Shown: one piece after another, positions 5,390 to 29,880 of the stretch
Layout: each line of letters begins with the position of its first letter
How positions within the stretch are numbered: the stretch's first letter is position 1
Assembly (NCBI RefSeq): GCF_000020385.1
Contig: NC_010814.1
Coordinates: forward strand, 150,001 to 182,000
Reading direction: 5' to 3'
DNA from: Trichlorobacter lovleyi SZ
GTDB taxonomy: Bacteria > Desulfobacterota > Desulfuromonadia > Geobacterales > Pseudopelobacteraceae
DNA: 32,000 nucleotides
The notes under the pieces: generated by a model
What the model saw: only the letters and a program-made list of their open reading frames with translations
What the model was told of the DNA's origin: nothing
Databases searched by the model: none
Position numbers and translations under genes: made by a program

Positions 5390-5834
5390 GTTTAATCCTG
5401 CGTCTTAGATCATCATAGACACCTTCAAGGTTGTGCATGATTTCGTGGTTGGTATAGCGAACAACCGTAAGGCCATAAGCTTCCAATTTTCTGGTACGCT
5501 CAGCATCATATTCAACAGCCTCTGCATGGCTGTCACCATCAATTTCAATTACGAGTTGCAAGTCAGAGCAGTAGAAATCGACGATATAGCCCCCGATCGG
5601 TTTTTGGCGGGTGAATTTGTAGTTAAAAAACTGCTTGTTGCGTAGAAGTTCCTGCCACATTTTCTGTTCAGCCACTGTCGGGTTCTTACGGTTATTCCGT
5701 GCAAGGCTAGTAAGCGTTGTCTTGTACTGCAGGAAACCCACCCCCCGCCCTCCCTTGTCAGGGAGGGGGCTAACAGCACATCCAATATGCTTCCCCCCTG
5801 ACAAGGGGGGATTGAGGGGGGTTGCTTTTTGCAT
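5382..5834 (-). CDS. DUF559 endonuclease-domain protein (Vsr-like fold)
   Basis: The C-terminal 110 aa (…NPTVAEQKMWQELL…FTRQKPIGGYIVDFYC…LVIEIDGDSH…) is typical DUF559. The ATG at 5834 overlaps the RND stop as TGATG, and the stop overlaps the pabB ATG. The N-terminal 40 aa are translated from two G/C hairpins, so an internal GTG at 5741 is an alternative start. Confidence 0.75.
   Translation of the reverse strand: MQKATPLNPPLSGGKHIGCAVSPLPDKGGRGVGFLQYKTTLTSLARNNRKNPTVAEQKMWQELLRNKQFFNYKFTRQKPIGGYIVDFYCSDLQLVIEIDGDSHAEAVEYDAERTRKLEAYGLTVVRYTNHEIMHNLEGVYDDLRRRIKHA
5748..5810. repeat. Pair of G/C hairpins with TTGTCA/TGACAA loops inside the 5' end of the DUF559 ORF
   Basis: CCCTCCC-TTGTCA-GGGAGGG (5748-5767) and CCCCCC-TGACAA-GGGGGG (5793-5810). 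The loops are reverse complements of each other. Confidence 0.5.
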
Positions 5835-8800
5835 CAGTGCTGTTCGCCTTTCCACTTCCGTTTCAACCAGTTACTGAAATCATCCAGATAGGTGTACATC
5901 ACCGGCACTACAATCAGGGTCAGCACGGATGAGGTGATCAGCCCCCCCACCACGGCGCGGGCCATCGGCGCCCGGCCTTCGCCACCGGCACCGATACCGA
6001 AGAAGAGCGGAAGCATGCCGAAGATCATGGCCAGGGTGGTCATGACGATCGGCCGCAACCGGGTGCGGCCCGCCTCGATCACCGCTGCGGTGCGCTCCAG
6101 CCCGTCCCGTTTTCGCAGCACCTTGGCATAGTCCACCAGCAGGATTGCGTTCTTGGTCACCAGCCCCATCAGCATGATCAGGCCGATCAGGGACATGATG
6201 TTGATGGTGTCGCCCGTGATCCGCAGCATGCCGGCCATACCCACGATGGAGAGCGGCAGGGAGAACATGATCGCCAGCGGTTCAAAGAACGACTCGAACT
6301 GGGCGGCCAGAATCAGGTAGACGAACAGCACCGCCAGGATCAGCGACTCTCCCATGTAGCCGAATGATTCGGCCATATCCTCGGCCTCGCCGGAAAAGCC
6401 GATGCTGTAGCCCGGCTCCATCTTGATCCGCTTGGCTACCGCTTCCACCTGTTTGACCGCGGTGCCGATCGGCAGGTTGTCCAGGTTGGCCGAGACCGTG
6501 ACCAGGCGGGAGAGGTCACGACGGTTGATCTCGGTGGGGGAGGAGGCCACGACCTCACTGGTGATACTGGCCAGCGGTACCAGCCGGGTGCTGCCGTCGG
6601 GATCGCTGACCGAGATCTTCAGTTCCCGCACCTGGGCCGGATGCTCCCGCAGCTGCCTGGGCAGGCGTACCCGCAGGTCAACCGCATCACCGTCCTCATC
6701 TTCATAGGAGGAGACCGCCTCCCCGCCGATCAGCCGTGAAAGGCTGTCCACAATGGCACTGGAGGAGACCCCGGCAGAGCGGGCCTTTTCCCGGTCCACC
6801 CGCAGCCGGTATTCCGGGGTGTCGTACTCCAGGGTGGCGGAGATATCCACGACACCGGGAATGCTGTACATCTCCTGCTTGAGCTGGGCTGCGTACTTCT
6901 TGAGCAGGGCCGTATCATCCCCCTTGATGTTGACGTTGAGCGGTTTGGCAGCCGAGCCGATCGCCCCCACCTCTTCAAGCGAGAAGTTGATCCCGGCAAT
7001 GCTGCGGAACCGCTCCCGAATGACCTGTTGAATCTCAAACATGCCCCGGGTACGTTCCGATTTCTCCTTGAGTTTGACGTACAGCAGGCCGTCCCGCACC
7101 GTGCCGTTGTCGCCGGCGCCGATGGTGGCGTAGGTGTGGCTGATCTCTTTGATATCCTTGATCAGGGCCAGCAACTGATGCAGGCGGCCTTCGCTCTCCT
7201 TGATGCTGGCATCCGGCGCGGTCTGGAAGGAGATCTGGAATTCGCTGGTATCCTCTTTGGACATGAAGGATGACTCCAGGGTTGCCATCACTACCAGGCC
7301 CAGTACAAAGGCGATTCCGGCCGAGATCACCACCTTGAGCCGATGCTGCAGGGCCCAGGCAATTATGCCGCGGTACCTGTCGGCGCTGCGGTCAAACCAG
7401 TCGTTGAACCGCTCCAGCCAGCGGGCCAGCCCTTTGCGGTTGCCCCGGTTGTGGATCGAGGGGTCGTGCCAGCGGGAAGAGAGCATCGGGTCCAGGGTAA
7501 AGGAGACAAACAGCGAGACCAGCACCGCAAAGGAGACCGTGATGCCGAACGGGAAGAAGAAGCGCCCCACGATCCCCCGCATGTAGGCCACCGGTACAAA
7601 GACCGCCAGGATCGACATGGTGGTGGCAAAGACCGCCAGGCCGATCTCGGCCGTGCCGAAGCGGGAGGCCTCCATATGGTCCTTGCCCAGCTCCAGGTGG
7701 CGCACGATGTTCTCCCGCACCACAATGGCGTCGTCGATCAGCAGGCCGATGGCCAGTGACAGCGCCATCAGGGTCATCACGTTGAGGGTCATACCCATGG
7801 CGTTCATCACGATAAAGGAGGAAATGACCGAGATCGGCAGGGTCACACCGGTGATTACGGTGGAACGCCAGGAGTTGATGAACATGAACACGATCAGTAC
7901 GGTCAGGATGCCGCCCACCAGCAGGGTCTCCTCCACATCGGCCAGTGACTGGCGGGTCATGATCGAGCCGTCCCGCACCAGCGAGATGGTCACCCCGGGC
8001 GGCATTTCTGCCTTAACCTTTTGCATCACCTTTTTGACGTTATCCACCACCTGGACCTGGTTGGCGCCGGACTGTTTGTAGATATCCAGACCAATGGCAG
8101 GCTGGCCGTTGACCAGGGCCAGCTTGCGGCGTTCCTCGACCCCGTCGGTGACCCTGGCCACCTCCCCCAGGCTGATCGGCCGGTTGTTGCGGGCGGCAAT
8201 CACCATGCTGCTGTAGCTGTCAGCCTGTTCAGGCTTGCCCTCGATCCGCAGCGGGTATTCGGCCGTTGACTTGGTGATCTTGCCCAGCGGAGTGTTGATG
8301 TTCTCCCCCTTCAGGCCGTTGACCAGGTCATTGACCCCCAGCCCCAGGCTGTCCAGCCGGACCGGGTCCACCTCGACATTCACCTCGCGCTTGGCGCCCC
8401 CTACCAGTTCCACCTTGCCCACACCGGTAACACTTTCAAACCGTTTGCGGATCTTCTTGTCCACCAGGGTGGTCAGGTCGCGCTGGGAGAGGCTGCTGGA
8501 CTGGATTGCCACCGCTGCCGACGGCATGGCATTGAAATCCAGCTTCTGGATGATCGGCTCTTCCACCTCTTTGGGCAGCTGGCCGCGGATCGAGCTGATC
8601 TTGGCCCTGGCCTCCTGGGCCACCTCGTTGGTCCGCTCTTCCAGCCGGAATTCAGCCACCACCGTGGAGACCGACTCGCGGGAATAGGAGGTGACATGCT
8701 TGATCCCGGCGATCTGGTTGACCGCCTCCTCCACCCGTTTGGAGACCTCGCGCTCCACGGTTTCAGGCGAGGCGCCGGGGTACTTGGTGACAATCGAGAT

Positions 8801-14011: not shown

Positions 14012-14230
14012 CTATGCCTGCTCGATCACAAAGCTCGAGCTGCCGGTAAGTGCAATGGTGTCACCGGGATAGAGCTTGCGTCCCCGGCGGGTCTCAACCG
14101 CTCCGTTAACCCGTATCTGGCCTTCCTGAATCACGATCTTGGCCTCACCACCGCTCATGACCAGGTTGGCAAGTTTCAGGAAACTGTCCAGCTTGATGTA
14201 GTCGGTATCGATTGAAATTTTTTCAGACAT
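14012..14230 (-). CDS. S4-domain RNA-binding protein (YbcJ-like)
   Basis: 72 aa, [59 protein letters not shown]…, resembles E. coli YbcJ. The longer ORF (to 14413) runs through comM in another frame and was rejected. Confidence 0.8.
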
Positions 14231-14709
14231 GGGAAACCTTTCTATCCAGGCTACGGTACTGAATCGCCTCGGCCAGATGCGGTTCATGGATCGCTTCGGA
14301 ACCGGCCAGGTCGGCAATGGTGCGGGCCACCTTGAGGATGCGGGAGTAGCTGCGGGCCGAGAAGCCCAACTTGTCTCCGGCCAGTTCCAGCATTCGGTGA
14401 CCGGCGGCATCAAGCTCGCAATGCCTCTTGATCAGGCGGGCGTTCATCTGGGCATTGCAGTGCACTTTGGTGCCTTTGAACCGTTCCTGCTGTACCTGGC
14501 GTGCCCGGATCACCCGGGAGGCAATGACGGTGGAGGACTCGGTTTCACGGCTGTCTGACAGGTCGCGGTAGGCCACGGCCGGCACCTCGACATGCAGGTC
14601 GATCCGGTCCAGAAGCGGACCGGAGATGCGGGAGCGGTACCGCTTGATGGCAATCGGCGTGCAGGTGCAGGCATGGGCCGGGTCCCCCAGATAACCGCAG
14701 GGGCAGGGG
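14223..14709 (-). pseudogene. comM: comM (yifB, Mg-chelatase-like ATPase) 3' fragment A, host-like GC, cut off upstream of the CPCG codons
   Basis: Encodes PCPCGYLGDPAHACTCTPIAIKRYRSRISGPLLDRIDLHVEVP…AIQYRSLDR, the C-terminal roughly 160 aa of a roughly 500-aa ComM/YifB. The residues upstream (…NSRERCTH) are translated from the island junction, not comM. Confidence 0.85.
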
Positions 14710-14780
14710 TGTGTGCACCTTTCTCTACTATTCTGACTCAAAACGGCACTCGTTCTCAATTCAAATTCCCCTCGAAAAAC
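14695..14780. repeat. Island junction repeat, copy 1 (att-like core plus left arm)
   Basis: CCGCAGGGGCAGGGGTGTGTGCACCTTTCTCTACTATTCTGACTCAAAACGGCACTCGTTCTCAATTCAAATTCCCCTCGAAAAAC recurs nearly identically at 19086 and with more changes at 29007. Confidence 0.8.
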
Positions 14781-15196
14781 AGCAACTTCCCGGTTATCCT
14801 GAATTTCCCATCACAGTCGGTGAACACATTCGCAAACGACGCATGGATCTTGGCCTCCTCCAGAGTGAAGTTGCCAAGATCATCGGCGTTACTGAGTCTT
14901 CAGTATGGAACTGGGAGCACGGCACTGAACCTGAACTGCAGTATAACCCCAAAATCATCGAATTTCTAGGGTACGTTCCGTTCGACTGCCCGGATGACAC
15001 AGTGGGGCGGCTTGCGTGGTACAAACGGGTAAATGGGATGAATCTGGAATATCTGGGTGAAGCAATGGGCCGAGATCCAGAACAACTGTCAGACTGGTTA
15101 AGTGGGCGGCATCGTCCGTTCCGGAAGAACCGGGGGAAGATCGAACTGTTTTTGGAAGAGCAGGGAATATTCCTTCCGACAAAGAAGATTTCGTGA
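14711..15196 (+). CDS. Tandem-HTH XRE-family protein, island left-end gene (XRE1, copy a)
   Basis: HTH IRKRRMDLGLLQSEVAKIIGVTESSVWNWEHG plus a second HTH-like unit MNLEYLGEAMGRDPEQLSDWLSGRH. Three paralogs occupy the same position in each island. Substitutions look synonymous or conservative from PGYP onward. The start is uncertain; GTG 14711 is the only conserved in-frame start. Confidence 0.7.
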   Translation: MCTFLYYSDSKRHSFSIQIPLEKQQLPGYPEFPITVGEHIRKRRMDLGLLQSEVAKIIGVTESSVWNWEHGTEPELQYNPKIIEFLGYVPFDCPDDTVGRLAWYKRVNGMNLEYLGEAMGRDPEQLSDWLSGRHRPFRKNRGKIELFLEEQGIFLPTKKIS

Positions 15197-19029: not shown

Positions 19030-19101
19030 AAAAGTTGTTTCATTTAGCCGTACAATCGGTTGCTGAAGTCGGATCAGAAAGGTAGCCGCAGGGACAGGGG
19101 T
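19030..19101 (-). pseudogene. comM: Decayed stub of a second comM 3' copy
   Basis: The minus strand reads PCPCGYLSDPTSATDCTAK*, matching the PCPCGYLGDP…C.C start of the comM fragments. It is then interrupted, and homology fades within about 70 bp. Confidence 0.45.
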
Positions 19102-19171
19102 GTGTGCACCTTTCTCTACTATTCTGACTCAAGACGGCACTTGTTCTCAATTCAAATTCCCCTCGAAAAAC
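19086..19171. repeat. Island junction repeat, copy 2
   Basis: CCGCAGGGACAGGGGTGTGTGCACCTTTCTCTACTATTCTGACTCAAGACGGCACTTGTTCTCAATTCAAATTCCCCTCGAAAAAC differs from copy 1 at only a few positions. Confidence 0.8.
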
Positions 19172-19584
19172 AACCTGTTCCCGGTTATCCCGAATTCCCA
19201 ATCACAGTTGGTGAACACATCCGCAAGAAACGGATGGATCTCGGTCTCCTCCAGAGAGAAGTAGCAGAGATCATCGGCGTCACCGAATCCTCTATCTGGA
19301 ACTGGGAGCATGGCACCGAACCAGAACTGCAATATAATCCAAGAATTATCAAATTTCTAGGTTATATTCCGTTCGACTGCCCGGATGACACTGTGGGGCG
19401 GCTTGCGTGGTATAAGAGAGCTATGGGAATGAACCTGGATCATCTGGGTGAAGCTATGGGCCGTGATCCTGAACAATTATCTGACTGGCTGAGTGGAAGA
19501 CATAATCCATTTCTGAAGAACCGGGAGAAGATAGAGCAGTATCTGAAAAATCAAGAAACCTTCCTTCTGCCAGAGAAGAAATAG
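19102..19584 (+). CDS. Tandem-HTH XRE-family protein, island left-end gene (XRE1, copy b)
   Basis: Paralog of 14711..15196 along its whole length. The conserved GTG is at 19102. The TTG at 19060 lies in non-homologous comM-derived DNA and was rejected. Confidence 0.7.
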   Translation: MCTFLYYSDSRRHLFSIQIPLEKQPVPGYPEFPITVGEHIRKKRMDLGLLQREVAEIIGVTESSIWNWEHGTEPELQYNPRIIKFLGYIPFDCPDDTVGRLAWYKRAMGMNLDHLGEAMGRDPEQLSDWLSGRHNPFLKNREKIEQYLKNQETFLLPEKK

Positions 19585-19645
19585 TTGATTGTTTCTTCCG
19601 CAAAGGGAAGCTTTTCATAATTGGAACTTCCGGTACAACCCTTCA

Positions 19646-19984
19646 TCAAAAATCATCATTGACCTTTACCAGTCCACGAATCCGTTTGGGTAGCAGGGCC
19701 AGCTTATCATCGATGTGCCTGCCGAAGGTGTAACGAACTGAATTCTCCTCGTCGTTGAAAAGTTTCACTCCGACTATGTTGGCAACCTCAAACACCAGGC
19801 CGATTTCACATTTCGGATCGCCGCGCTCGATCTTCTGCAAGGTTCTTCTGGAAATCCCCGCCCGTCCGGACAGCTCTTCCTCGGTCATCTTGCGCTCTTT
19901 CCTTCCAAGCCGGATGAGCTTGCCCAGCAGTTCTGCTGCATCTCGGGTCTGACGGAGATATGTACGGTTCACAGGAGAGGCCAT
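19646..19984 (-). CDS. XRE-family HTH protein, HipB-like with C-terminal extension (XRE2, copy a)
   Basis: 112 aa. LIRLGRKERKMTEEELSGRAGISRRTLQKIERGDPKCEIGLVFEVANIVGVKLF. Convergent with XRE1. A near-identical copy lies at 26269..26607. Confidence 0.8.
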   Translation of the reverse strand: MASPVNRTYLRQTRDAAELLGKLIRLGRKERKMTEEELSGRAGISRRTLQKIERGDPKCEIGLVFEVANIVGVKLFNDEENSVRYTFGRHIDDKLALLPKRIRGLVKVNDDF

Positions 19985-20097: not shown

Positions 20098-20940
20098 TCA
20101 ACACAATTGAGGTTGCAGGACATTTTTCAGTTTTACTAACGCTCGCTCTTCAATCTGACGTACCCGCTCACGTGAAATGGAAAAGTGGTCCGCAATATCT
20201 TGAAGTGTTAGAGGATCATCATTGGTGATCCTGTGTTCAACAATATATTTCTCTTTTTCGTTCAACCCCTGCAGGGCATGGGCAATTGCTTTCTTCAGTG
20301 AATGCTCCTGCTGATACTCACCGAGCATTTCTTCCTGATTCATCCGGTCGTCAGCAATAGTCTCAAGTATCGTCAGGCCATCGCCCTCAATGATTTCCTC
20401 ATTGAGAGAAACTTCTCCTTTAAGCCGCTGCTCCATTTCTACGACTTCATGATCTGGTACGTGGAGCATACTGGAAACTTCAAATGCGTCGCTATCCCTG
20501 CCGGTTAACTTAAGTAGTGCTTCCTTGGTTTTGCGCAACCCATAAAACAATTTTCTTTGTGCTTGCGTAGTACCAATTTTTACCAGGCTCCAAGCGGAAA
20601 CAATGTAGTTTTGAATGTAAGCACGAATCCACCATACGGCATAAGAAATCAATCGAACCCCTCTATATGGATTGAATTTACGAACCGCCATCATGAGCCC
20701 AATATTGCCCTCCTGAATCAGATCGAGCATTTTCAGGCCGTAATGACGGTATTCGGAAGCGACTTTAACCACATAGCGAAGATTGGAAGTAATGAGGGTA
20801 TGAGCAGCCTCCAGATCCTTTTCCTCAAAGAACTTGACGGCGTAGTCCCTCTCTTCATCTTCTGTAAGTAAATTGAATTTGCGGATTTCGGAAAGATAGA
20901 GGGTAAGACTGTCGGAAATGATTGGCAGATTGGTAACCAT
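20098..20940 (-). CDS. rpoH: RpoH-family (sigma-32-like) heat-shock sigma factor carried on the island
   Basis: 280 aa from MVTNLPII (AGGAGG RBS). Region 2 reads LIQEGNIGLMMAVRKFNPYRGVRLISYAVWWIRAYI. RpoH-box-like QAQRKLFYGLRKTKE. Region 4 HTH reads LQDIADHFSISRERVRQIEERAL. Confidence 0.85.
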   Translation of the reverse strand: MVTNLPIISDSLTLYLSEIRKFNLLTEDEERDYAVKFFEEKDLEAAHTLITSNLRYVVKVASEYRHYGLKMLDLIQEGNIGLMMAVRKFNPYRGVRLISYAVWWIRAYIQNYIVSAWSLVKIGTTQAQRKLFYGLRKTKEALLKLTGRDSDAFEVSSMLHVPDHEVVEMEQRLKGEVSLNEEIIEGDGLTILETIADDRMNQEEMLGEYQQEHSLKKAIAHALQGLNEKEKYIVEHRITNDDPLTLQDIADHFSISRERVRQIEERALVKLKNVLQPQLC

Positions 20941-20969
20941 GACGCACCTCCTGAAAACTTGTATCATGA

Positions 20970-20996
20970 TTAGCACTCTATGGTGCTGACTGCTAA
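20970..20996. promoter_or_regulatory. CIRCE-like inverted repeat (HrcA operator type)
   Basis: TTAGCACTC-N9-GACTGCTAA versus the CIRCE consensus TTAGCACTC-N9-GAGTGCTAA (one mismatch). It lies between the predicted promoter and the start of the rpoH-like gene. Confidence 0.7.
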
Positions 20997-20997
20997 A

Positions 20998-21026
20998 AAT
21001 GTAGCAAATATTTTTAGCAGTTTCAA
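20998..21026 (-). promoter_or_regulatory. Candidate sigma70-type promoter of the rpoH-like gene
   Basis: The minus strand reads TTGAAA-N17-TACATT. The spacer is one arm plus the loop of a second perfect 11-bp inverted repeat, CTGCTAAAAAT-N9-ATTTTTAGCAG (20990-21020), that shares an arm with the CIRCE-like site. Confidence 0.5.
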
Positions 21027-21085
21027 GTAGAAAATCAATATAAGCTACATAATATCAGCGTGTTAACCTTACTAAAAAAACATCT

Positions 21086-21122
21086 CTTCCCCCCTTGATT
21101 TTTTGAAAACAGGAATTATTTA
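21086..21122 (+). promoter_or_regulatory. Candidate sigma32-type promoter of the hsp20 operon
   Basis: TCTTCCCCCCTTGAT (compare the E. coli sigma32 extended -35, TCTC-CCCTTGAA), a 14-nt spacer, then AATTATTTA (a weak match to CCCCATNTA, only ATNTA kept). About 40 nt upstream of the first hsp20 ATG. Confidence 0.45.
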
Positions 21123-21160: not shown

Positions 21161-21610
21161 ATGGCAACCTGGGATGTATTCAAAGAACTGGACACACTGA
21201 GAAGGGAGATCGATGAAGCTTTTCGTGGCGCTGGTTACAGCCGTCCATTTGGCCCGACATTCCTTTCGCCGGTAACAACCCGCCGCTTCCCGCTGGTTAA
21301 CTTCAGCGAGGACGAAGGGCATGTCTATATTGAGGCACTGGTTCCCGGCGTAGATCCAAAGGATGTCGATCTGTCCGTACTACGGAACACTGTCACCATT
21401 AGTGGCGAGCGCAAACCGTTTGTCGAAACGGAAGGCCAGATCGTGCATCGCTCGGAACTCGGCTCCGGCAAGTTCTCCCGCACGTTGGAACTGCCGGTCG
21501 ACATCGACCCTGAGAAGATTTCGGCCCAGTGCAAAGACGGTATCATGCAGATAACACTGGCCAAGGCAGAACATGCCAAGCCAAAGAAAATCGAAATCAG
21601 ACTTTCGTAA
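21161..21610 (+). CDS. Hsp20/alpha-crystallin small heat-shock protein 1
   Basis: 149 aa, alpha-crystallin domain (…YIEALVPGVDPKDVDLSVLRNTVTISGERK…GKFSRTLELPVDIDPEKISAQCKDGIMQITLAK). GAAAGGAGG RBS. Confidence 0.9.
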   Translation: MATWDVFKELDTLRREIDEAFRGAGYSRPFGPTFLSPVTTRRFPLVNFSEDEGHVYIEALVPGVDPKDVDLSVLRNTVTISGERKPFVETEGQIVHRSELGSGKFSRTLELPVDIDPEKISAQCKDGIMQITLAKAEHAKPKKIEIRLS

Positions 21611-21643
21611 TCACACAGACCACTTGGAAAGGAGGTAATTATC

Positions 21644-22042
21644 ATGGCAGCAAACAGCTTGACCGAAAGAAATGATGAACGGAATGTTCAGGCTCGTGAA
21701 GAAACACGGTCGAATGAGAAATATATCCGCCCGGCGGTGAATATCATCGAGACCGAAGAAGGACTTGTCCTTACCGCAGATATTCCCGGTGCATCCAAGG
21801 AAGCTCTCGATGTCAACGTCGAAAAAGGCATCCTGACCATCACTGCGCCGGCCCAGCATACCACGCAGGGAACCTCTGCATATCGTGAATTCGAACTGGC
21901 CAGTTACTACCGGCAGTTCACGATTCCTGAAAGCCTCGACCATGAAAAAGCAAAGGCAGAGTATGTCAACGGTATTCTGACCCTGAAGGTGCCTAAGGCG
22001 GAGGTCGCCAAACCAAAACGGATTTCCGTACAGGTCGGGTAA
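21644..22042 (+). CDS. Hsp20/alpha-crystallin small heat-shock protein 2
   Basis: 132 aa (…LVLTADIPGASKEALDVNVEKGILTITA…YRQFTIPESLDHEKAKAEYVNGILTLKVPK). GAAAGGAGG RBS. Confidence 0.9.
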   Translation: MAANSLTERNDERNVQAREETRSNEKYIRPAVNIIETEEGLVLTADIPGASKEALDVNVEKGILTITAPAQHTTQGTSAYREFELASYYRQFTIPESLDHEKAKAEYVNGILTLKVPKAEVAKPKRISVQVG

Positions 22043-22071
22043 GGAAGGAGCATTAACGGGAGGTGATCACA

Positions 22072-22554
22072 ATGTCTAACCTGTTGCCTGAAAGATGGAG
22101 TGAGGCGCTGGAGCGGGTTAACGACAAGATCGGCCATTTCCTGACCAAGGTGGCGCCATGGAAGAAACAGGAACAGTCACCTGAAAGGATAACAACCGAT
22201 ACCCTTCCAGCATTCATGAAACTTGGTGGTCCGCTGCTGGACATGCATGAGACCCCTGAAGAGCTGATTGTCAGGGCAGAAGTACCGGGACTGAATAAAG
22301 ATGACTTTTCAGTCGAGCTTGTCGGCAGGCGGTTGACAATACATGGAGAGAAGAAAATCGTACGAGAACAGAAAGGGGGTGATGGGTGCCTTATTTCAGA
22401 ACGCAGGTACGGCAGTTTTTCCCGCAGCATCTCGCTGCCGTACGATATAGATGAGAAGACCATTAAAGCGGACCTCAAACAGGGGGTCCTCACGGTCCGG
22501 CTCCCAAAGCCGGAAAAGGAACAGCATACCCGCTATCGGGTGCCTGTCTCCTGA
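22072..22554 (+). CDS. Hsp20/alpha-crystallin small heat-shock protein 3
   Basis: 160 aa from ATG 22072 (GGGAGGTG RBS; the GTG at 22063 is less likely). …LIVRAEVPGLNKDDFSVELVGRRLTIHGEKK…GSFSRSISLPYDIDEKTIKADLKQGVLTVRLPK. Confidence 0.9.
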   Translation: MSNLLPERWSEALERVNDKIGHFLTKVAPWKKQEQSPERITTDTLPAFMKLGGPLLDMHETPEELIVRAEVPGLNKDDFSVELVGRRLTIHGEKKIVREQKGGDGCLISERRYGSFSRSISLPYDIDEKTIKADLKQGVLTVRLPKPEKEQHTRYRVPVS

Positions 22555-22570
22555 ATCAGCAGATTGTACC

Positions 22571-22592
22571 GAGGGCCGCTTCAGCGGCCCTC
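22571..22592 (+). terminator. Hairpin after the third hsp20 (possible partial terminator or attenuator)
   Basis: GAGGGCCGC-TTCA-GCGGCCCTC, a 9-bp perfect stem with only a weak T-rich tail (ACTATTTC). Confidence 0.4.
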
Positions 22593-22628
22593 ACTATTTC
22601 GGCAGGGTAATAATGGCAGGTGAACGTT

Positions 22629-23573
22629 ATGAACAACTACCAGGACTACTACAAAACACTCGGCGTCGAGAAAAAAGCAACTCAGGATGAAATCCAGCGG
22701 GCGTATCGCAAGCTGGCTCGCAAATACCATCCTGACATTAATAAGGAAAGCTCCGCTGAGGAAAAGTTCAAACAGCTCAATGAAGCCTACGAGGTTCTGG
22801 GTGACCCGGAAAAAAGAGCCAAGTATGATCATCTCGGCAGCGGTTGGGATGGGCAATTTGCCAATCAGGGTTATCAGGATGGCGATAATGTCCAATACCA
22901 TTACTCCAATGCCGACCCGGGGCAGTTCAGTGACTTCTTCCAGAACCTGTTCGGTGGTGGCGGATGGAACTTCACGGAGGAAAGCAATTTTCATGGTGGC
23001 GGCGTCAGGAGGCGTCGGGGGCGCGACCATGAAACCGCCATCAACATATCATTGGCTGATGCCTACCATGGCGCAAAGAAGAGCATCGAACTAGAGCGGG
23101 CTGAACTGGGCAGTGACGGCAGGCCGACCAGAACCAGGCGCAGCTATGATATCACCATCCCCCAAGGAGTGACTGATGGCTCCTTGATCCGCCTGGCTAA
23201 CCAAGGCGGGAGCGGGAGCGGTGGTGGAGATGCAGGAGACCTGTTTCTGCGGGTGAACATACTTCCCGATAGTCGCTTCACGCTCAACGGACACGACCTT
23301 GCCACTACCGTTGATATAGCTCCCTGGGAGGCTGCCCTGGGAGGGAAAGTCTTGGTGCCTACTGTCGATGGGCGCATTAACCTTTCCGTGCCCGCCGGCA
23401 CCCAAAGCGGTCAGAGCCTGCGGGTGCGTGGAAAGGGAATGCCGGTCGCCCCGGGCAGGTTCGGCGACCTGCTGGTAAATGTCCGCATTGTTGTGCCACA
23501 GCATCTCACAGCCAGGGAGCGGCACCTCTTTGAAGAACTGGCAAAAGAATCACGATTTGAGCCGCGAAAGTAA
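22629..23573 (+). CDS. cbpA: DnaJ-class co-chaperone without zinc finger (CbpA type)
   Basis: J-domain [35 protein letters not shown]-rich linker, no CxxCxGxG repeats, and C-terminal substrate-binding domains. Followed by a cbpM-like gene. Confidence 0.85.
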
Positions 23574-23586
23574 CTGAGGTACAGCC

Positions 23587-23889
23587 ATGACAGTCCAACA
23601 CTATGAAATTATTATCAGCAGAAAGCATGAACTGGTCTCCGTGCCGGGGATAACCATCCATGAGTTGAGCAGGCTGTGCGATTGTCACCTGACGGTGGCG
23701 AGACGGCTCTTCTCAATCGGCCTCATTGAACCGTTGACTGCCGGAGATACTCCGCTGTTTGATCAAAGCGCCGTGGTTCGGGCACGCAAAGCACTGCGAC
23801 TGAAACGGGACCTGCGGCTCAATTTCGATGCCATTGCCCTGGTAATGGATTTACTTGACCGCATCGACGAACTGGAACGACGAATATAA
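23587..23889 (+). CDS. cbpM: Chaperone-modulator protein CbpM (MerR-like)
   Basis: 100 aa directly downstream of cbpA. MerR-like HTH (ITIHELSRLCDCHLTVARRLFSIGLI) and C-terminal LVMDLLDRIDELERR, typical of CbpM. Confidence 0.75.
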   Translation: MTVQHYEIIISRKHELVSVPGITIHELSRLCDCHLTVARRLFSIGLIEPLTAGDTPLFDQSAVVRARKALRLKRDLRLNFDAIALVMDLLDRIDELERRI

Positions 23890-23914
23890 GCAATACCCTG
23901 ACAGGAGCTCAACC

Positions 23915-25042
23915 ATGATACAGAAAACTGCCGATCCGTTCCTGCGCCGCCTGCGTTGGTTGACCATCGCCGTTATCACCGTACTGTTTGCCTGGCATGC
24001 CCTGTCATGGGCAGACCGGGCTTTCCAGAAAGAATCGGCAACCCCACGTGCGGTTACCGCCCGCGGCGATCTGGCTGCCGATGAGAAATCGACCATTGAA
24101 CTGTTCGAGCGTTCACGAGATTCGGTCGTGTATATATCGACTTCAGAACGGGTCATGGACTTCTGGAGCCGCAATATCTTCACCATACCTCGTGGTACTG
24201 GATCAGGTTTCATCTGGGACGATAAAGGGCATATTGTAACAAACTTTCATGTTATCGAAGGGGCTTCAGAGGCCCGGGTCAGATTGTCGGACGGCAAGGA
24301 GTACAAGGCCAGTCTGGTCGGCGCCAGCCCCATGCACGATCTTGCTGTGCTGAAGATCGGCACCCGCTTCAAAGGACATTCGCTGCCGGTTGGCACCTCA
24401 CACAACCTGAAGGTCGGCCAGAAGGTCTTTGCCATCGGCAACCCGTTCGGTCTCGACTGGACCCTGACCACCGGGATCGTCTCTGCTCTGGACCGGTCAT
24501 TGAAGGGAGAATCCGGCAGCATCATCGAGCATCTGATCCAGACCGATGCCGCCATCAACCCGGGCAACTCCGGTGGGCCACTCCTTGATTCAGCCGGCCG
24601 GCTCATCGGCATCAATACCGCTATTTACAGTCCGTCCGGCGCATCAGCCGGAGTAGGGTTTGCCGTGCCGGTGGATACCGTCAACCGGGTGGTTCCACAA
24701 CTGATTGGTCAAGGGAAATATGTTCGTCCATCCCTGGGAATTGAAATTGACCAGGATCTCAACGAGGCGATTACGGAGCAGCTTGGCGTCAAAGGTGTGG
24801 CAATACTTAAGGTGCGTTCAAATTCTCCGGCAGCGCGGGCAGGGTTCAGAGGCATAACCATTAATCGTGACCGAACAATTACTCCTGGTGATATAATTAC
24901 AGCCGTACAAGGAAAACAGGTCGAAACGATTCCCAAATTGCTGGCTCGATTGGATGACTTCAAAGTGGGCGATACGGTGACCATCACCATTCTCCGTGAT
25001 GGCAAACAGCAGCAGCGCAGCGTTCAGTTGCAGGCAGAGTAA
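23915..25042 (+). CDS. S1C (DegS/HtrA-type) serine protease with N-terminal membrane anchor and one PDZ domain
   Basis: 375 aa from MIQKTADPF (CAGGAG RBS). Triad contexts are TNFHVIEG, HDLAVLKI and GNSGGPLL. C-terminal PDZ (…GDIITAVQGKQVETIPKLLARL…). Confidence 0.85.
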   Translation: MIQKTADPFLRRLRWLTIAVITVLFAWHALSWADRAFQKESATPRAVTARGDLAADEKSTIELFERSRDSVVYISTSERVMDFWSRNIFTIPRGTGSGFIWDDKGHIVTNFHVIEGASEARVRLSDGKEYKASLVGASPMHDLAVLKIGTRFKGHSLPVGTSHNLKVGQKVFAIGNPFGLDWTLTTGIVSALDRSLKGESGSIIEHLIQTDAAINPGNSGGPLLDSAGRLIGINTAIYSPSGASAGVGFAVPVDTVNRVVPQLIGQGKYVRPSLGIEIDQDLNEAITEQLGVKGVAILKVRSNSPAARAGFRGITINRDRTITPGDIITAVQGKQVETIPKLLARLDDFKVGDTVTITILRDGKQQQRSVQLQAE

Positions 25043-25067
25043 GCACAATCAAGCCAGGAGAAGCGGA

Positions 25068-25676
25068 ATGCCCCAAAACATTGACGATCTTATACAACGG
25101 ATCAAGGAACTGCAGGAGGAACTTGAAGTCGAGTTCAAGAAGAAACGGGACGAATTCGAGTTCATCATCGAAAAGAAACGGGTTCGTTTTGCCGAGGAGG
25201 TGGCACGGCAGCAACGTCGGTTGAAAATCGGCTGGTTCCGCTATCTGATCAAATCAAGACCGCTCAATGTCCTGACCGCTCCGGTTATTTACGCGGGGTT
25301 CATCCCCTTTATGATCCTGGATCTGTTTCTCTGGCTCTATCAGTCGATCTGCTTTCCGGTGTATGGTATTCCCAAGGCAAAGCGCTCCGATTATCTGATT
25401 TTCGACCGGGAAGACCTCCCGTACCTGAACGTCATCGAGAAGTTCAACTGTTTCTACTGTTCCTATGGCAACGGACTCATGGCCTATGGCCGGGAGATTG
25501 CGGCCCGGACCGAGCAGTACTGGTGCCCGATCAAGCATGCCCGCCGGATCAAGGCGGCACACGAACATTATCCGCGCTTCTTCGAGTACGGCGATGCTGA
25601 GAGTTGGCAAAAAGGGCTGGAACGGCTGCGTCGGCAATATCCAAAAGAACAACAACCTGCAACCGAGGTGAAGTGA
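25068..25676 (+). CDS. Membrane protein of unknown function (coiled-coil N-terminus, hydrophobic hairpin, Cys-rich C-domain)
   Basis: 202 aa from MPQNIDDL (AGGAG RBS). Hydrophobic stretch LNVLTAPVIYAGFIPFMILDLFLWLYQSICFPVY, then CFYCSYGNG…WCPIKH. Tightly packed between the protease and the thioredoxin. Family not recognised. Confidence 0.6.
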   Translation: MPQNIDDLIQRIKELQEELEVEFKKKRDEFEFIIEKKRVRFAEEVARQQRRLKIGWFRYLIKSRPLNVLTAPVIYAGFIPFMILDLFLWLYQSICFPVYGIPKAKRSDYLIFDREDLPYLNVIEKFNCFYCSYGNGLMAYGREIAARTEQYWCPIKHARRIKAAHEHYPRFFEYGDAESWQKGLERLRRQYPKEQQPATEVK

Positions 25677-26268: not shown

Positions 26269-26607
26269 TCAAAAATCATCATTGACCTTTACCGGTCTAC
26301 GTACCCGCTTGGGCAGCAGGGCCAGCTTATCGTCAATGTGCCTGCCGAAGGTGTAACGAATTGAATTCTCCTCATCGTTGAAAAGCTTTACTCCGACTAT
26401 ATTGGCAACCTCGAACACCAGGCCGATTTCACATTTCGGATCGCCGCGCTCGATCTTCTGCAAGGTCCTTCTGGAAATCCCCGCCCGTCCGGACAGCTCT
26501 TCCTCGGTTATCTTGCGTTCTTTTCTGCCAAGCCGGATGAGTTTACCCAACAGCTCAGCGGCATCCCGGGTCTGACGGAGATATGTGCGGTTAACTGGAG
26601 AGGCCAT
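26269..26607 (-). CDS. XRE-family HTH protein (XRE2, copy b), downstream of fic
   Basis: 112 aa from MASPVNRTYLRQ, differing from copy a at only a handful of residues. The 26646 start was rejected by comparison with copy a. Confidence 0.8.
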   Translation of the reverse strand: MASPVNRTYLRQTRDAAELLGKLIRLGRKERKITEEELSGRAGISRRTLQKIERGDPKCEIGLVFEVANIVGVKLFNDEENSIRYTFGRHIDDKLALLPKRVRRPVKVNDDF

Positions 26608-26709
26608 AAAAAACACCAAATGGATATTATCGCAATCGCTAAACAATTGTATGGATACGATAGTATCCGTTTAGGTAAAGATCTAATGAAACGCGGGAAG
26701 CATGAAAGC

Positions 26710-28236: not shown

Positions 28237-28288
28237 GGTCGCCTTGCTGTTACACGATTATTATGATCAAGCATTACAAGATTATTGT

Positions 28289-28519
28289 TGAAGTGGCAAG
28301 GGGATTGCGGTCGTGGTGGATCGCGGGGACGTACCTTGAACTCGCTGTCTGCCAGTGTTCATTGGTTGGTCCCAAACAAATCTGCATAGATTTAGTTACG
28401 CAGTGAGCTGCTTTGAGCTCTTCAAATGCTACAGGACTGATGCGACCATTAGCACTGTGGCGGCGGTTACGATTGTAGTCAACTTCAATATACTCAAACA
28501 CTGATCTCGGTAATGTCAC
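28289..28519 (-). mobile_element. IS3-family insertion-sequence relic (3' end of orfB plus terminal inverted repeat)
   Basis: The minus strand encodes …FEYIEVDYNRNRRHSANGRISPVAFEE…, the conserved C-terminal end of IS3-family DDE transposases. The + strand TGAAGTGGCAAGGGG at 28289 looks like an IS3-type TG-initiated terminal repeat. Everything upstream of the transposase tail is missing. Confidence 0.7.
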
Positions 28520-28540: not shown

Positions 28541-29021
28541 TCACGATGTCTTCCTATCCAAACTCCGATACTGGATCGCCTCGGCCAGGTGCTGGTCGCG
28601 GATAGCTTCTGACCCGGCCAGATCGGCAATGGTGCGGGCAACCTTCAGAATACGGGAGTAGCTGCGGGCGGAGAATCCCAGTTTTTCTCCGGCCAGTTCC
28701 AGCATTCGGTGCCCGTTCTGGTCAAGTTCACAGTGTTTCTTGATCAGGCGGGCGTTCATCTGGGCGTTGCAGTGGACCTTGGTCCCTTTGAAGCGCTCCT
28801 GCTGCAGGTTTCTGGCCTGGGTTACCCGAGCCGCGATTGCGGCAGAGCTTTCAGTTTCACGGCTGTCAGACAGGTCACGGTAGGCGACGGCAGGAACTTC
28901 AACATGCAGGTCAATCCGATCCAGCAGTGGCCCTGAAATACGGGAACGATAACGTTTGATGGCGATGGGTGTGCAACTGCAAGTATGCGAAATATCTCCT
29001 AAAAATCCACAAGGACAGGGG
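28541..29021 (-). pseudogene. comM: comM 3' fragment B (divergent, lower-GC copy)
   Basis: PCPCGFLGDISHTCSCTPIAIKRYRSRISGPLLDRIDLHVEVP…AIQYRSLDRKTS*, colinear with fragment A. It has many nucleotide differences (roughly four in five positions identical by eye). Upstream residues come from junction copy 3. Confidence 0.85.
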
Positions 29022-29092
29022 TGTGTTAACCTTTCTCTACAATTCTTATGTAAGACGGCACTCGTTCTCAATCGAAATTCCCCTCGAAAAGC
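29007..29092. repeat. Island junction repeat, copy 3 (most divergent)
   Basis: CCACAAGGACAGGGGTGTGTTAACCTTTCTCTACAATTCTTATGTAAGACGGCACTCGTTCTCAATCGAAATTCCCCTCGAAAAGC. Confidence 0.8.
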
Positions 29093-29508
29093 TACCACTC
29101 CCCGGCTATCCCACCAATCCCGTGACCATCGGTGACCACATCCGCAAACGGCGAATGGATCTCGGTCTTCTCCAGAGAGAAGTCGCGGAAATCATCGGCG
29201 TTACTGAGTCTTCGGTCTGGAATTGGGAACACGGAGTGGAACCAGAACTGCAATATAATCCAAGAATTATCAAATTTCTAGGTTATATTCCGTTCGACTG
29301 TCCGGATGACACAGTGGGGCGGCTTGCGTGGTACAAGAGAGCGATGGGGATGAACCTGGATCATCTAGGTGAAGCGATGGGCCGTGATCCGGAACAACTG
29401 TCGGATTGGTTGAGTGGCCGGCATAATCCGTTTCGGAAGAACCGGGAGAAGATCGAGCTGTTTCTGGAAAACCAGAAGACCTTCCTTCTTCCAGAGAAAA
29501 GACGGTGA
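29023..29508 (+). CDS. Tandem-HTH XRE-family protein, island left-end gene (XRE1, copy c)
   Basis: Paralog of copies a and b (PGYPTNPVTIGDHIRKRRMDLGLLQREVAEIIGVTESSVWNWEHG…). Conserved GTG at 29023. The ATG at 28969 lies in comM-derived DNA and was rejected. Confidence 0.7.
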   Translation: MLTFLYNSYVRRHSFSIEIPLEKLPLPGYPTNPVTIGDHIRKRRMDLGLLQREVAEIIGVTESSVWNWEHGVEPELQYNPRIIKFLGYIPFDCPDDTVGRLAWYKRAMGMNLDHLGEAMGRDPEQLSDWLSGRHNPFRKNREKIELFLENQKTFLLPEKRR

Positions 29509-29565
29509 ATATCTTCTCCCGCAAAGGAAAACATTCAATACCTTGACTTCCTGCACGACCTGTCG

Positions 29566-29880
29566 TCAGAATTCATTATTGACCATTATCACTCTGCGAA
29601 CCCGCTTGGGCAGCAGTGCCAGCTTATCCTCAACGTGCCTCCCGTAGTTGTAGCGGTTCGAATTCTCTTCATCGCGGAAAAGCTTCACCCCAACCAGGTT
29701 GGCGACCTCGACACCAGGCCGATCTCACATTTCTGGTCGCTGCGCTCGATCTTCTGCAAGGTCCTTCTAGAAATCGCACCCGAAACCACAACAATCATGG
29801 TCGATGGCAAAGAGAAGACGATTCCGCTGTAGCAAGTGCAAGTCGGTAACCTGCTTCTTGTCAAGCCCGACGAGCGCATA
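29566..29880 (-). pseudogene. Degenerate third copy of XRE2
   Basis: Nucleotide homology to 19646..19984 runs from the stop (TCAGAATTCATTATTGACC versus TCAAAAATCATCATTGACC) onward. A 1-nt deletion near 29710 and a non-homologous block at about 29770-29850 break the frame. Only a 64-aa piece (…RRTLQKIERSDQKCEIGLV…) stays open. Confidence 0.6.

What the first reader, a model, noticed from the sequence alone, without database searches (positions are those of the whole stretch)
20970..21026. CIRCE-like operator interlocked with a second perfect inverted repeat over the island sigma-factor promoter
- TTAGCACTC-N9-GACTGCTAA (20970-20996) differs from the HrcA operator consensus at one base.
- Its right arm doubles as the left arm of CTGCTAAAAAT-N9-ATTTTTAGCAG (20990-21020).
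- That second repeat spans the spacer of a TTGAAA-N17-TACATT promoter reading toward the rpoH-like gene.
- Together this gives three CIRCE half-site-like units (TTAGCAC, CTGCTAA, TTAGCAG) at regular spacing.
- It suggests the incoming island plugs its sigma factor into the host HrcA thermosensor circuit, an unusual HrcA-over-sigma32 cascade on mobile DNA.
Basis: partly seen in the sequence, partly recalled or inferred. Interest (0 to 1): 0.65.

Follow-up and report, generated by a model that had tools for sequence, protein, structure and literature searches.

The report
HrcA operator on an accessory rpoH promoter
The repeat is a genuine CIRCE (HrcA repressor) operator sitting on the start site of a heat-shock sigma factor gene, an arrangement shared by every rpoH gene examined in the Geobacter order and already published for Geobacter sulfurreducens; the second, interlocked repeat is real but confined to this one allele and has no demonstrated role.

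Summary
Both repeats exist as described. CIRCE (20970-20996) matches the consensus at 17 of 18 bases and is the only hit in the window. The second repeat is perfect, with 12-nt arms and a 9-nt loop (p about 0.001 for this intergenic region).

The gene below is a true RpoH, starting at ATG 20940. CIRCE starts 1 nt after the -10 of a TTGAAA-N17-TACATT promoter and so covers the predicted start site.

This architecture is not special to the island:
- All 80 rpoH loci recovered from Geobacterales species genomes carry CIRCE at the same place.
- 43 of the 80 carry the same one-base variant arm.
- Rodionov et al. 2004 reported CIRCE at -51 of G. sulfurreducens rpoH.

The island idea is largely supported:
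- The gene belongs to a separate RpoH clade, tied to a divergent Hsp20x3-CbpA-CbpM-DegP operon with a sigma-32-type promoter.
- It lies between truncated comM copies.
- It recurs in different genomic contexts.

A second, core rpoH in this genome was not shown.

The second repeat occurs only in this allele, 1 of 64 metagenome alleles. Its half-sites face the wrong way for HrcA. It looks like a single inverted-copy mutation. hrcA in this genome could not be checked.

The parts
20970..20996 (.). CIRCE operator. In the gene's orientation (minus strand) it reads TTAGCAGTC-N9-GAGTGCTAA and spans -56 to -30 relative to the rpoH ATG.
   Evidence: 1 mismatch, unique in the window, 0.03 expected; a CIRCE at the equivalent place in 80 of 80 related rpoH loci.
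20989..21000 (.). Proximal arm of the second perfect inverted repeat (IR2). It overlaps the promoter-proximal CIRCE arm and the last bases of the -10 hexamer.
21010..21021 (.). Distal arm of IR2. It fills the -35/-10 spacer and overlaps the last base of the -35 hexamer. It is present only in this allele.
20998..21026 (-). rpoH promoter P1: -35 TTGAAA, 17-nt spacer, TG-extended -10 TACATT. It also reads as a sigma-32-like CTTGAAA-N15-GCTACAT.
   Evidence: scan. (conserved cTTGAtt...TGcTATATT block immediately 5' of CIRCE in 80 loci).
20098..20940 (-). rpoH (280 aa, sigma-32) of the accessory clade I. The real start is ATG 20940, with GGAGG at 20951-20947, not the GTG at 20976.
   Evidence: TIGR02392 scores 332 bits against a cutoff of 323; the 280-aa product is the called gene on public contigs. 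RpoH box QRKLFYGLR in the translation.
21094..21121 (+). Sigma-32-type promoter of the divergent chaperone operon: CTTG-N17-ATTATTT.
   Evidence: ccCTTGAT and TTAT blocks conserved in all 12 aligned clade I intergenic regions. The consensus CTTG-N17-CYTATNT is recalled from memory.
21161..25676 (+). Divergent operon: Hsp20 (21161-21610), Hsp20 (21644-22042), Hsp20 (22063-22554), CbpA-like DnaJ (22620-23573), MerR_2/CbpM-like (23587-23889), DegP/HtrA (23855-25042) and an unknown 226-aa protein (24996-25676).
   Evidence: families. (linked to clade I rpoH in L001-L014, L017-L023, L091, L092).
21037..21066 (-). Possible upstream promoter P2 (TTAACA-N18-TATATT, 10 of 12 matches). Its transcripts would contain IR2 and CIRCE. 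It is weakly conserved.
   Evidence: Weak in the nearest allele L162. Its -10 is split by an IS in L001.
19060..19984 (.). XRE-type HTH pair next to rpoH (112 aa on the minus strand, 174 aa on the plus strand). Paralogous copies recur at other unit ends (14711-15196, 26269-26646, 29007-29849).
14223..14759 (-). Truncated comM (Mg-chelatase-like) 3' fragment marking one boundary of the island array.
   Evidence: only profile positions 156-207 plus the C-terminal domain are present; the same fragment sits at the variable junction in L001-L012.
28541..29098 (-). Second truncated comM 3' fragment, same orientation, on the other side of the heat-shock module.

Best explanation
The 27-bp repeat is the HrcA operator (CIRCE) of an rpoH gene.

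Proposed mechanism:
- The operator starts one base after the -10 hexamer of the rpoH promoter and covers the predicted start site.
- At normal temperature, HrcA kept active by GroEL would sit on the start site and hold transcription of this sigma-32 gene down.
- When unfolded proteins titrate GroEL, HrcA would let go and sigma-32 would be made.
- Sigma-32 would then drive the divergent Hsp20x3-CbpA-CbpM-DegP operon from its sigma-32-type promoter.

Origin: the promoter-plus-operator cassette is ancestral to rpoH throughout the Geobacterales. It travelled with this rpoH paralog (clade I) when the rpoH-chaperone module became part of a comM-linked, horizontally exchanged region.

The second repeat is a young, allele-specific feature. 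It was most likely created in one step, by an inverted copy (template switch) of the 12 bases at the CIRCE/-10 junction into the promoter spacer. It probably has no HrcA-related function.

Shown:
- Sequence, position and conservation of CIRCE and the promoter.
- RpoH identity.
- Linkage to the chaperone operon.
- The variable, comM-linked context.
- The restriction of IR2 to one allele.

Inferred:
- HrcA binding.
- The transcription start.
- Sigma-32 dependence of the hsp20 promoter.
- The mutational origin of IR2.
For: Site and gene:
- CIRCE has 1 mismatch and is unique in the window.
- The gene is RpoH above the equivalog cutoff.
- The promoter is found by the scan, with CIRCE 1 nt after the -10.

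Conservation:
- 80 of 80 Geobacterales rpoH loci (61-100% protein identity) have CIRCE at -44 to -89, with one at -150. Mismatch counts: 25 perfect, 47 with one, 6 with two, 2 with three.
- 71 of 80 have a perfect distal arm and 43 of 80 share the G-variant proximal arm.
- All are preceded by the same cTTGAtt...TGcTATATT block.

Literature:
- CIRCE at -51 of rpoH, and hrcA present, in G. sulfurreducens and relatives (PMC545781).

Clades and linkage:
- Clade I RpoH is monophyletic.
- Among the recovered loci, only clade I rpoH sits beside the Hsp20 cluster, and two clade I loci (L015, L016) and P. propionicus L093 lack it.
- Clade II has core synteny: HisKA-NtrC | rpoH | tuf-secE-nusG.

Mobility:
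- Two truncated comM fragments and repeated XRE pairs flank the module.
- The same module occurs in different contexts.
- Identity across the module is mosaic.

IR2:
- Non-random.
- Present only in loci identical to the window allele.
- The nearest allele, L162, differs by 5 clustered bases in the distal arm.
Against: - hrcA could not be looked for in this genome.
- No experiment shows binding, heat induction or the start site.
- Only one MAG (STCSWMC_134) shows a clade I and a core-type rpoH together, on short contigs, so mis-binning is possible. Two searches failed to find a core-type RpoH on the 3.9-Mb contig that carries this protein. In this host the gene may therefore be the only sigma-32.
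- No integrase lies in the window.
- A perfect 12-bp repeat with p about 0.001 could equally be selected. All IR2 alleles are identical, so neutrality is inferred only from its absence elsewhere.
Confidence: 0.7

Rival explanations
1. CIRCE plus IR2 form an array of three HrcA half-sites, so that HrcA binds cooperatively across the whole promoter (-35 to +25) and represses this island copy more tightly than ordinary CIRCE genes.
For: The distal IR2 arm contains TTAGCAG, identical to the variant CIRCE half-site. IR2 is far from random. Both repeats have 9-nt loops.
Against: - In the gene's orientation the order is CTGCTAA-N17-TTAGCAGTC-N9-GAGTGCTAA. The extra unit is a right-arm type placed upstream of a left arm, so it is everted with a 17-nt gap. 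It has no left-arm partner 9 nt upstream of it (read directly from the sequence).
- It is absent from every other allele, including close relatives that keep CIRCE perfectly.
Confidence: 0.1
2. IR2 is the operator of a different, module-encoded regulator that occludes the -35/-10 spacer. Candidates are the XRE-type proteins next to rpoH (19060-19984) and the MerR_2/CbpM-like protein (23587-23889).
For: A 12-N9-12 perfect palindrome centred on the extended -10 is a typical dimeric repressor site. HTH genes are adjacent to the IR2 allele in L001-L007 and L009-L011 (contig L008 ends before them).
Against: - No second copy of the motif occurs anywhere in the window, including next to the paralogous XRE pairs. 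At up to 2 mismatches there are 5 hits against 1.85 expected, and the only perfect ones are the two IR2 arms.
- Relatives that have the same MerR_2 gene lack IR2 (L012, L091).
- The match of the MerR_2 protein to HspR is weak (E 2e-4, far below cutoff), and no HAIR-like site is present (direct reading).
Confidence: 0.1
3. IR2 acts as nucleic-acid structure. One possibility is a hairpin in transcripts from the upstream promoter P2. Another is a DNA hairpin or cruciform that competes with CIRCE pairing because the two repeats share one arm. Either would give a temperature-sensitive or HrcA-antagonising switch.
For: - The IR2 hairpin dominates the predicted fold (DNA -13.2 kcal/mol, z -4.9; RNA stem -12 kcal/mol against -8.3 for the CIRCE stem).
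- A sigma-70-like P2 matching 10 of 12 positions lies upstream.
Against: - From P1 the distal arm is not transcribed.
- P2 is poorly conserved and is split by an IS in L001.
- There is no U-tract and no terminator call.
- The hairpin does not touch the ribosome-binding site.
- A 9-nt loop disfavours cruciform extrusion (general knowledge).
- IR2 is not conserved.
Confidence: 0.07
4. The CIRCE here is an inherited relic that no longer works, because the host lacks HrcA or the site is too weak with its one-base change.
For: hrcA was not verified in this genome. The site is imperfect.
Against: - The same variant arm is kept in 43 of 80 species and the other arm is perfect in 71 of 80. That pattern indicates purifying selection.
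- hrcA was found in every Geobacter and Desulfuromonas genome examined in PMC545781.
Confidence: 0.03

Closest known systems
CIRCE/HrcA control of rpoH in Geobacter sulfurreducens (Rodionov et al. 2004, PMC545781, Table 8; Ueki & Lovley 2007, Microbiology 153:838, cited in PMC2725144; that paper is not held and its content is recalled from memory)
   Same: Same operator consensus. Same position just upstream of rpoH (-51 there, -56 here). Same order of bacteria. Same logic: HrcA negative control layered on the sigma-32 positive regulon.
   Different: - Here the proximal arm carries the C-to-G variant shared by 43 of 80 loci.
- The gene belongs to a separate RpoH clade, tied to a divergent sHSP-CbpA-DegP operon and lying in a comM-linked variable region.
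- This allele has an extra overlapping palindrome.
Canonical CIRCE operators of groESL and hrcA-grpE-dnaK operons (Bacillus subtilis and many other bacteria)
   Same: A 9-N9-9 inverted repeat placed at or just after the start site of a vegetative-type promoter. HrcA is the presumed repressor.
   Different: The target is a sigma factor gene rather than a chaperone operon. That makes a two-tier cascade.
[quoted passage not shown]
   Same: A horizontally exchanged protein-quality-control module with several sHSP20 genes and DegP, with thioredoxin and PsiE in related copies. One tLST-like island is reported to encode its own sigma factor (a sigma-24-like one).
   Different: There is no ClpK/ClpG, YfdX, HdeD, KefB or FtsH. 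Instead it carries rpoH with a CIRCE operator and a CbpA/CbpM pair. It occurs in Geobacterales and is not a tLST member.
Multiple rpoH paralogs in alpha-Proteobacteria, including plasmid- and chromid-borne copies
   Same: More than one sigma-32 lineage within a clade. Some copies sit on accessory replicons (one search lists annotated rpoH on Azospirillum, Bradyrhizobium and Sinorhizobium plasmids or chromids).
   Different: Those copies are only 43-46% identical to this protein. They are not known to me to carry CIRCE. No plasmid in PLSDB carries this module.

Membership tests
CIRCE / HrcA operator | A 9-N9-9 inverted repeat matching TTAGCACTC-N9-GAGTGCTAA | tested here: met
   17 of 18 bases match. 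It is the only hit in the window, with 0.03 expected.
CIRCE / HrcA operator | Located at the promoter or start site, upstream of the start codon of a heat-shock gene | tested here: met
   It starts 1 nt after the predicted -10 and spans -56 to -30 from the rpoH ATG. The promoter is predicted, not mapped.
CIRCE / HrcA operator | Conserved at the same position in orthologous and paralogous loci | tested here: met
   80 of 80 Geobacterales rpoH loci. 64 distinct metagenome alleles with the same layout.
CIRCE / HrcA operator | hrcA encoded in the same genome | not testable with these tools
- No Geobacterales HrcA query was available, and none of the roughly 1.4 Mb of fetched loci from this order contains hrcA.
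- Indirect evidence only: hrcA is reported in all Geobacter and Desulfuromonas genomes studied.
CIRCE / HrcA operator | HrcA binding and heat or GroEL-dependent derepression | not testable with these tools
   This needs EMSA or footprinting and expression assays.
RpoH (sigma-32) | Full-length match to the RpoH equivalog model above its cutoff, plus the RpoH box | tested here: met
   TIGR02392 scores 332.4 bits against a cutoff of 323.1. QRKLFYGLR is present in the translation.
Second CIRCE (IR2 as an HrcA site) | Half-sites in left-N9-right orientation | tested here: not met
   The IR2 half-sites are everted (CTGCTAA-N17-TTAGCAG), and no left arm lies 9 nt upstream of the extra unit.
Second CIRCE (IR2 as an HrcA site) | Conservation in related loci | tested here: not met
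   Only the window allele has it. Of the 80 species loci only L011, identical to the window, has it, and only 1 of 64 metagenome alleles does.
Integrated genomic island (comM-targeting) | Truncated copies of the target gene flanking the element | tested here: met
   comM 3' fragments at 14223-14759 and 28541-29098, in the same orientation. The same fragment sits at the junction in L001-L007, L010 and L012.
Integrated genomic island (comM-targeting) | Same element in different contexts, or absent from related genomes | tested here: met
   - Flanks differ among L001-L010.
- The module sits next to IDH, IS21 or an integrase in Geobacter.
- Most Geobacterales loci have only the core-type rpoH without the module.
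Integrated genomic island (comM-targeting) | Integrase or other mobility genes within the element | tested here: not met
   The window holds only an rve_2 remnant (28274-28519). No tRNA gene is present. The intact comM and any integrase lie outside the window.
tLST / LHR | Core genes sHSP20-ClpK/ClpG-sHSP, YfdX, HdeD, KefB | tested here: not met
   Pfam and NCBIfam annotation of the module shows none of these.

The most novel reading that the evidence does not exclude
The rpoH-sHSP-CbpA-CbpM-DegP unit is a self-contained, horizontally exchanged heat-shock regulon. It would comprise a sigma-32 paralog and the sigma-32-dependent chaperone operon it drives. It would carry its own CIRCE operator, so that any Geobacterales host supplying HrcA and GroEL provides the thermosensor. 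In the allele seen here, the overlapping palindrome IR2 would add a new, allele-specific layer of control at the shared arm.
Probability: 0.3. Interest if true: 0.55.

Novelty: new member of a known kind. Interest (0 to 1): 0.3.

Why it matters
The finding does not reveal a new regulatory principle. HrcA/CIRCE control of rpoH is an order-wide, published feature of Geobacter and its relatives.

Three points go beyond that:
- This wiring is universal across 80 species, including a conserved one-base operator variant.
- A distinct RpoH lineage travels with its own chaperone operon and its own CIRCE-controlled promoter through a comM-linked recombination hot spot. If confirmed, that would be a Geobacterales counterpart of the stress-tolerance islands of beta- and gamma-Proteobacteria, but one with a built-in regulator that relies on a host sensor.
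- The interlocked repeat is a clean natural example of a one-step inverted duplication inside a promoter. It would be a convenient test case for whether such events are neutral.

Tried and rejected
- **hrcA in the same genome.** No route was available.
  - Literature searches for hrcA with lovleyi or Pelobacter gave nothing useful.
  - A tblastn with B. subtilis HrcA (recalled from memory) against all fetched loci hit only L155, an unrelated high-GC hrcA-grpE contig.
  - No extra CIRCE site was found in the fetched loci.
- **A core-type second rpoH on the 3,917,761-bp contig or the P. propionicus chromosome.**
  - Two protein searches with clade II queries (L057, L082) listed neither contig among their top 120 hits.
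  - Look-ups of P0177, P0222 and P0122 did not fall in island-bearing assemblies.
- **Plasmid carriage of the module.** None was found in PLSDB.
- **Extending the window rightwards** to find the intact comM or an integrase. Only short Logan contigs were available.
- **Known RNA families** around the intergenic region. Rfam gave only chance-level hits.
- **HAIR (HspR) operator** for the MerR_2 protein. Rejected on reading the sequence.
- **IR2 as a terminator.** Rejected: there was no terminator call and no T-run.
- **IR2 motif copies near the paralogous XRE genes.** None found.
- **The Ueki & Lovley 2007 paper.** It is not held.

Full report
**1. The observation**

- TTAGCACTC-TATGGTGCT-GACTGCTAA lies at 20970-20996. 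It has one mismatch to the CIRCE consensus and is the only match in the 32-kb window at up to three mismatches (0.03 expected).
- The second repeat is perfect and one base longer per arm than reported: ACTGCTAAAAAT at 20989-21000 and ATTTTTAGCAGT at 21010-21021, with a 9-nt loop.
- It is the only perfect inverted repeat with arms of at least 11 nt in the window (0.017 expected for 12 nt). Only 0.08% of composition-matched simulations of the 220-nt intergenic region produced one.
- The promoter TTGAAA-N17-TACATT (21026-20998, minus strand, with a TG extension) is picked up by the consensus scan.
- "Regular spacing" of three half-sites does not hold. The units start at 20970, 20990 and 21014, and the third faces away from the second.

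**2. The gene and its neighbours**

- The minus-strand gene is RpoH. TIGR02392 scores 332 bits against a cutoff of 323, and the translation contains an RpoH box, QRKLFYGLR.
- Its real start is ATG 20940, preceded by GGAGG. This is the 280-aa product called on public contigs. It is not the GTG at 20976 that a mechanical ORF list gives. CIRCE therefore spans -56 to -30.
- The plus strand carries three Hsp20 genes, a CbpA-like DnaJ, a MerR_2/CbpM-like protein, a DegP/HtrA protease and an unknown 226-aa protein.

**3. CIRCE on rpoH is order-wide and already published**

- A scan of one genome per species returned 80 rpoH loci from Geobacterales, at 61-100% protein identity.
- Every one has a CIRCE upstream of rpoH, at -44 to -89, with one at -150.
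- Mismatch counts: 25 perfect, 47 with one mismatch, 6 with two and 2 with three.
- The distal arm is perfect in 71 of 80.
- 43 of 80 share exactly the C-to-G variant of the proximal arm (TTAGCAGTC) seen here.
- In all of them, CIRCE follows directly on a conserved cTTGAtt...TGcTATATT block.
- With CIRCE starting one base after the -10, the start site should fall inside the proximal arm. This is the classical repressor-on-start-site layout.
- Rodionov et al. 2004 listed CIRCE at -51 of G. sulfurreducens rpoH. They found hrcA and CIRCE in all Geobacter and Desulfuromonas genomes they studied (PMC545781).
- From memory, Ueki & Lovley 2007 reached the same conclusion experimentally. That paper is not held. 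Its reference is in PMC2725144.
- The HrcA-over-sigma-32 cascade is therefore real but not unusual for this clade.

**4. Is it an island sigma factor?**

Largely yes, with one gap.

- *Linkage.* Every locus that carries the divergent Hsp20 cluster has an RpoH at least 70% identical to the query (L011-L014, L017-L023, L091, L092). These Hsp20 genes are 87-97% identical and often come with CbpA, CbpM and DegP. Three clade I loci lack the cluster: L015, L016 and P. propionicus L093. Loci at 69% or below never have it.
- *Phylogeny.* A neighbour-joining tree makes the first group a single clade, here called clade I. It also contains the Pelobacter propionicus copy.
- *Core copies.* Clade II copies sit in conserved core synteny: HisKA-NtrC | rpoH | tRNA-tuf-secE-nusG.
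- *Flanks in the window.* The module lies between two truncated comM 3' fragments (14223-14759 and 28541-29098). Paralogous XRE gene pairs recur at unit ends.
- *Context elsewhere.*
  - The identical RpoH protein occurs on contigs whose flanks differ beyond the XRE/comM junction.
  - The module sits by isocitrate dehydrogenase, IS21 and an integrase in Geobacter benzoatilyticus and G. anodireducens-type contigs.
  - It sits among comM fragments and IS elements in P. propionicus.
- *Mosaic identity.* DegP and the 226-aa protein are 98% identical to those of Geomesophilobacter. RpoH is only 89% identical to the Geomesophilobacter copy but 100% identical to the lovleyi-like contigs.
- *Origin of the operator.* Clade I shares the G-variant arm and the promoter block with a large part of clade II. 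The operator was therefore inherited with the gene, not acquired by the island.
- *The gap.* A clade I and a core-type rpoH in one genome are seen only in MAG STCSWMC_134 (L011 and L057). I could not find a core-type copy on the 3.9-Mb contig that carries this protein. No integrase is in the window.

**5. The output side**

- The hsp20 operon is preceded by CTTG (21094-21097), N17, ATTATTT (21115-21121).
- The ccCTTGAT and TTAT blocks are conserved in all twelve aligned clade I intergenic regions.
- This fits the sigma-32-type consensus CTTG-N17-CYTATNT, which I recall from memory.
- The module therefore looks like a sigma factor plus the operon it drives. This is inference.

**6. The second repeat**

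- IR2 is present, unchanged, in every contig that has the window's allele (L001-L011, L132, L145).
- It is absent everywhere else: in the closest clade I relatives, in all 79 other species loci, and in 63 of 64 distinct metagenome alleles that share the G-variant CIRCE and promoter spacing.
- The nearest allele, L162, is 88% identical over 5.4 kb and has the same CIRCE spacer. It differs in the distal arm by five clustered bases, ATTATCGGCACT against ATTTTTAGCAGT.
- A clustered change that creates perfect complementarity to the adjacent 12 bases is the signature of a template-switch (inverted-copy) mutation. One event explains the improbable palindrome without selection.
- As an HrcA site it fails on geometry. 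In the gene's orientation the order is CTGCTAA-N17-TTAGCAGTC-N9-GAGTGCTAA, so the extra unit is everted and has no partner.
- No other copy of the motif exists in the window.
- No terminator is called.
- From P1 the distal arm is not transcribed.
- A possible upstream promoter P2 is weakly conserved. Its -10 is split by an IS in L001.
- The hairpin is nevertheless the dominant predicted fold, so a structural role cannot be excluded.

**7. Verdict**

- The CIRCE is a real, probably functional HrcA operator. It is a new member of a known and published arrangement.
- The island context is a worthwhile addition. The clade I rpoH-chaperone unit appears to be an exchanged module that keeps the ancestral HrcA-controlled promoter.
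- The interlocked repeat is real but allele-specific, and is most simply a mutational by-product.
- Still open: hrcA in this genome, the transcription start, HrcA binding, and whether a second core rpoH exists in this host.

Noticed in passing
window 14223-14759, 28541-29098, 14711-15196, 19060-19984, 26269-26646, 29007-29849: Two truncated comM (Mg-chelatase-like) 3' fragments in the same orientation, with three or four paralogous XRE-type HTH gene sets at unit ends. This looks like a tandem array of comM-targeted islands. One unit carries AraC, Fe-ADH and a DksA-like gene. Another carries a Fic-domain protein and an rve_2 remnant.
   Followed up: partly
L001 8557-9896, equivalent to window 21038-21044: In one related contig a DDE_Tnp_1 IS element is inserted between hsp20a and rpoH, with a 7-bp overlap (target duplication) at window 21038-21044. 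It separates the two divergent promoters and cuts the predicted P2 -10. P1, IR2 and CIRCE remain intact.
   Followed up: partly
window 21094-21121: Conserved sigma-32-type promoter (CTTG-N17-ATTATTT) in front of the three Hsp20 genes. It is conserved across all clade I loci.
   Followed up: partly
window 21037-21070: A block conserved among clade I loci, reading gTTAACa...ctgaTATTGTT in the rpoH orientation, between the two promoters. In the window it scores as a sigma-70-like promoter (TTAACA-N18-TATATT, 10 of 12), but the nearest allele has a weak version. Its function is unknown.
   Followed up: partly
window 20925-20968 (minus strand): The palindrome ATCATGAT right after CIRCE can pair with GTCATGG at the rpoH start codon, enclosing the ribosome-binding site. 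The fold is not better than shuffles (z -0.7), so it is probably not meaningful.
   Followed up: partly
window 22063-25676 compared with L001-L006 and L012: Identity along the module is mosaic. DegP and the 226-aa protein are 98% identical to the Geomesophilobacter sediminis copies but 89-92% identical to the lovleyi-like contigs. RpoH and Hsp20a/b show the opposite pattern. This implies recombination between module variants across genera.
   Followed up: partly
L016 (MAG labelled Dissulfurispiraceae), L011 and L057 (MAG STCSWMC_134): A clade I rpoH with CIRCE occurs in a MAG assigned to a different phylum. One MAG holds both a clade I and a core-type rpoH, on short contigs. Either reflects horizontal transfer or mis-binning.
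   Followed up: no
L155 1151-2226: The same one-base CIRCE variant (TTAGCACTC-N9-GACTGCTAA) lies directly upstream of hrcA-grpE in an unrelated high-GC metagenome contig.
   Followed up: no
L030-L034, L039-L041, L044, L048-L053 and similar loci: Many MAG contigs with the core-type rpoH end within 1-2 kb downstream of it. The next genes are tRNAs and tuf (EF-Tu), a duplicated gene that breaks assemblies.
   Followed up: partly
window 5382-5855: A DUF559 (Vsr-like endonuclease fold) ORF is wedged between a PabB/aminotransferase fusion gene and an AcrB-type efflux operon, in the 59-64% GC left part of the window.
   Followed up: no
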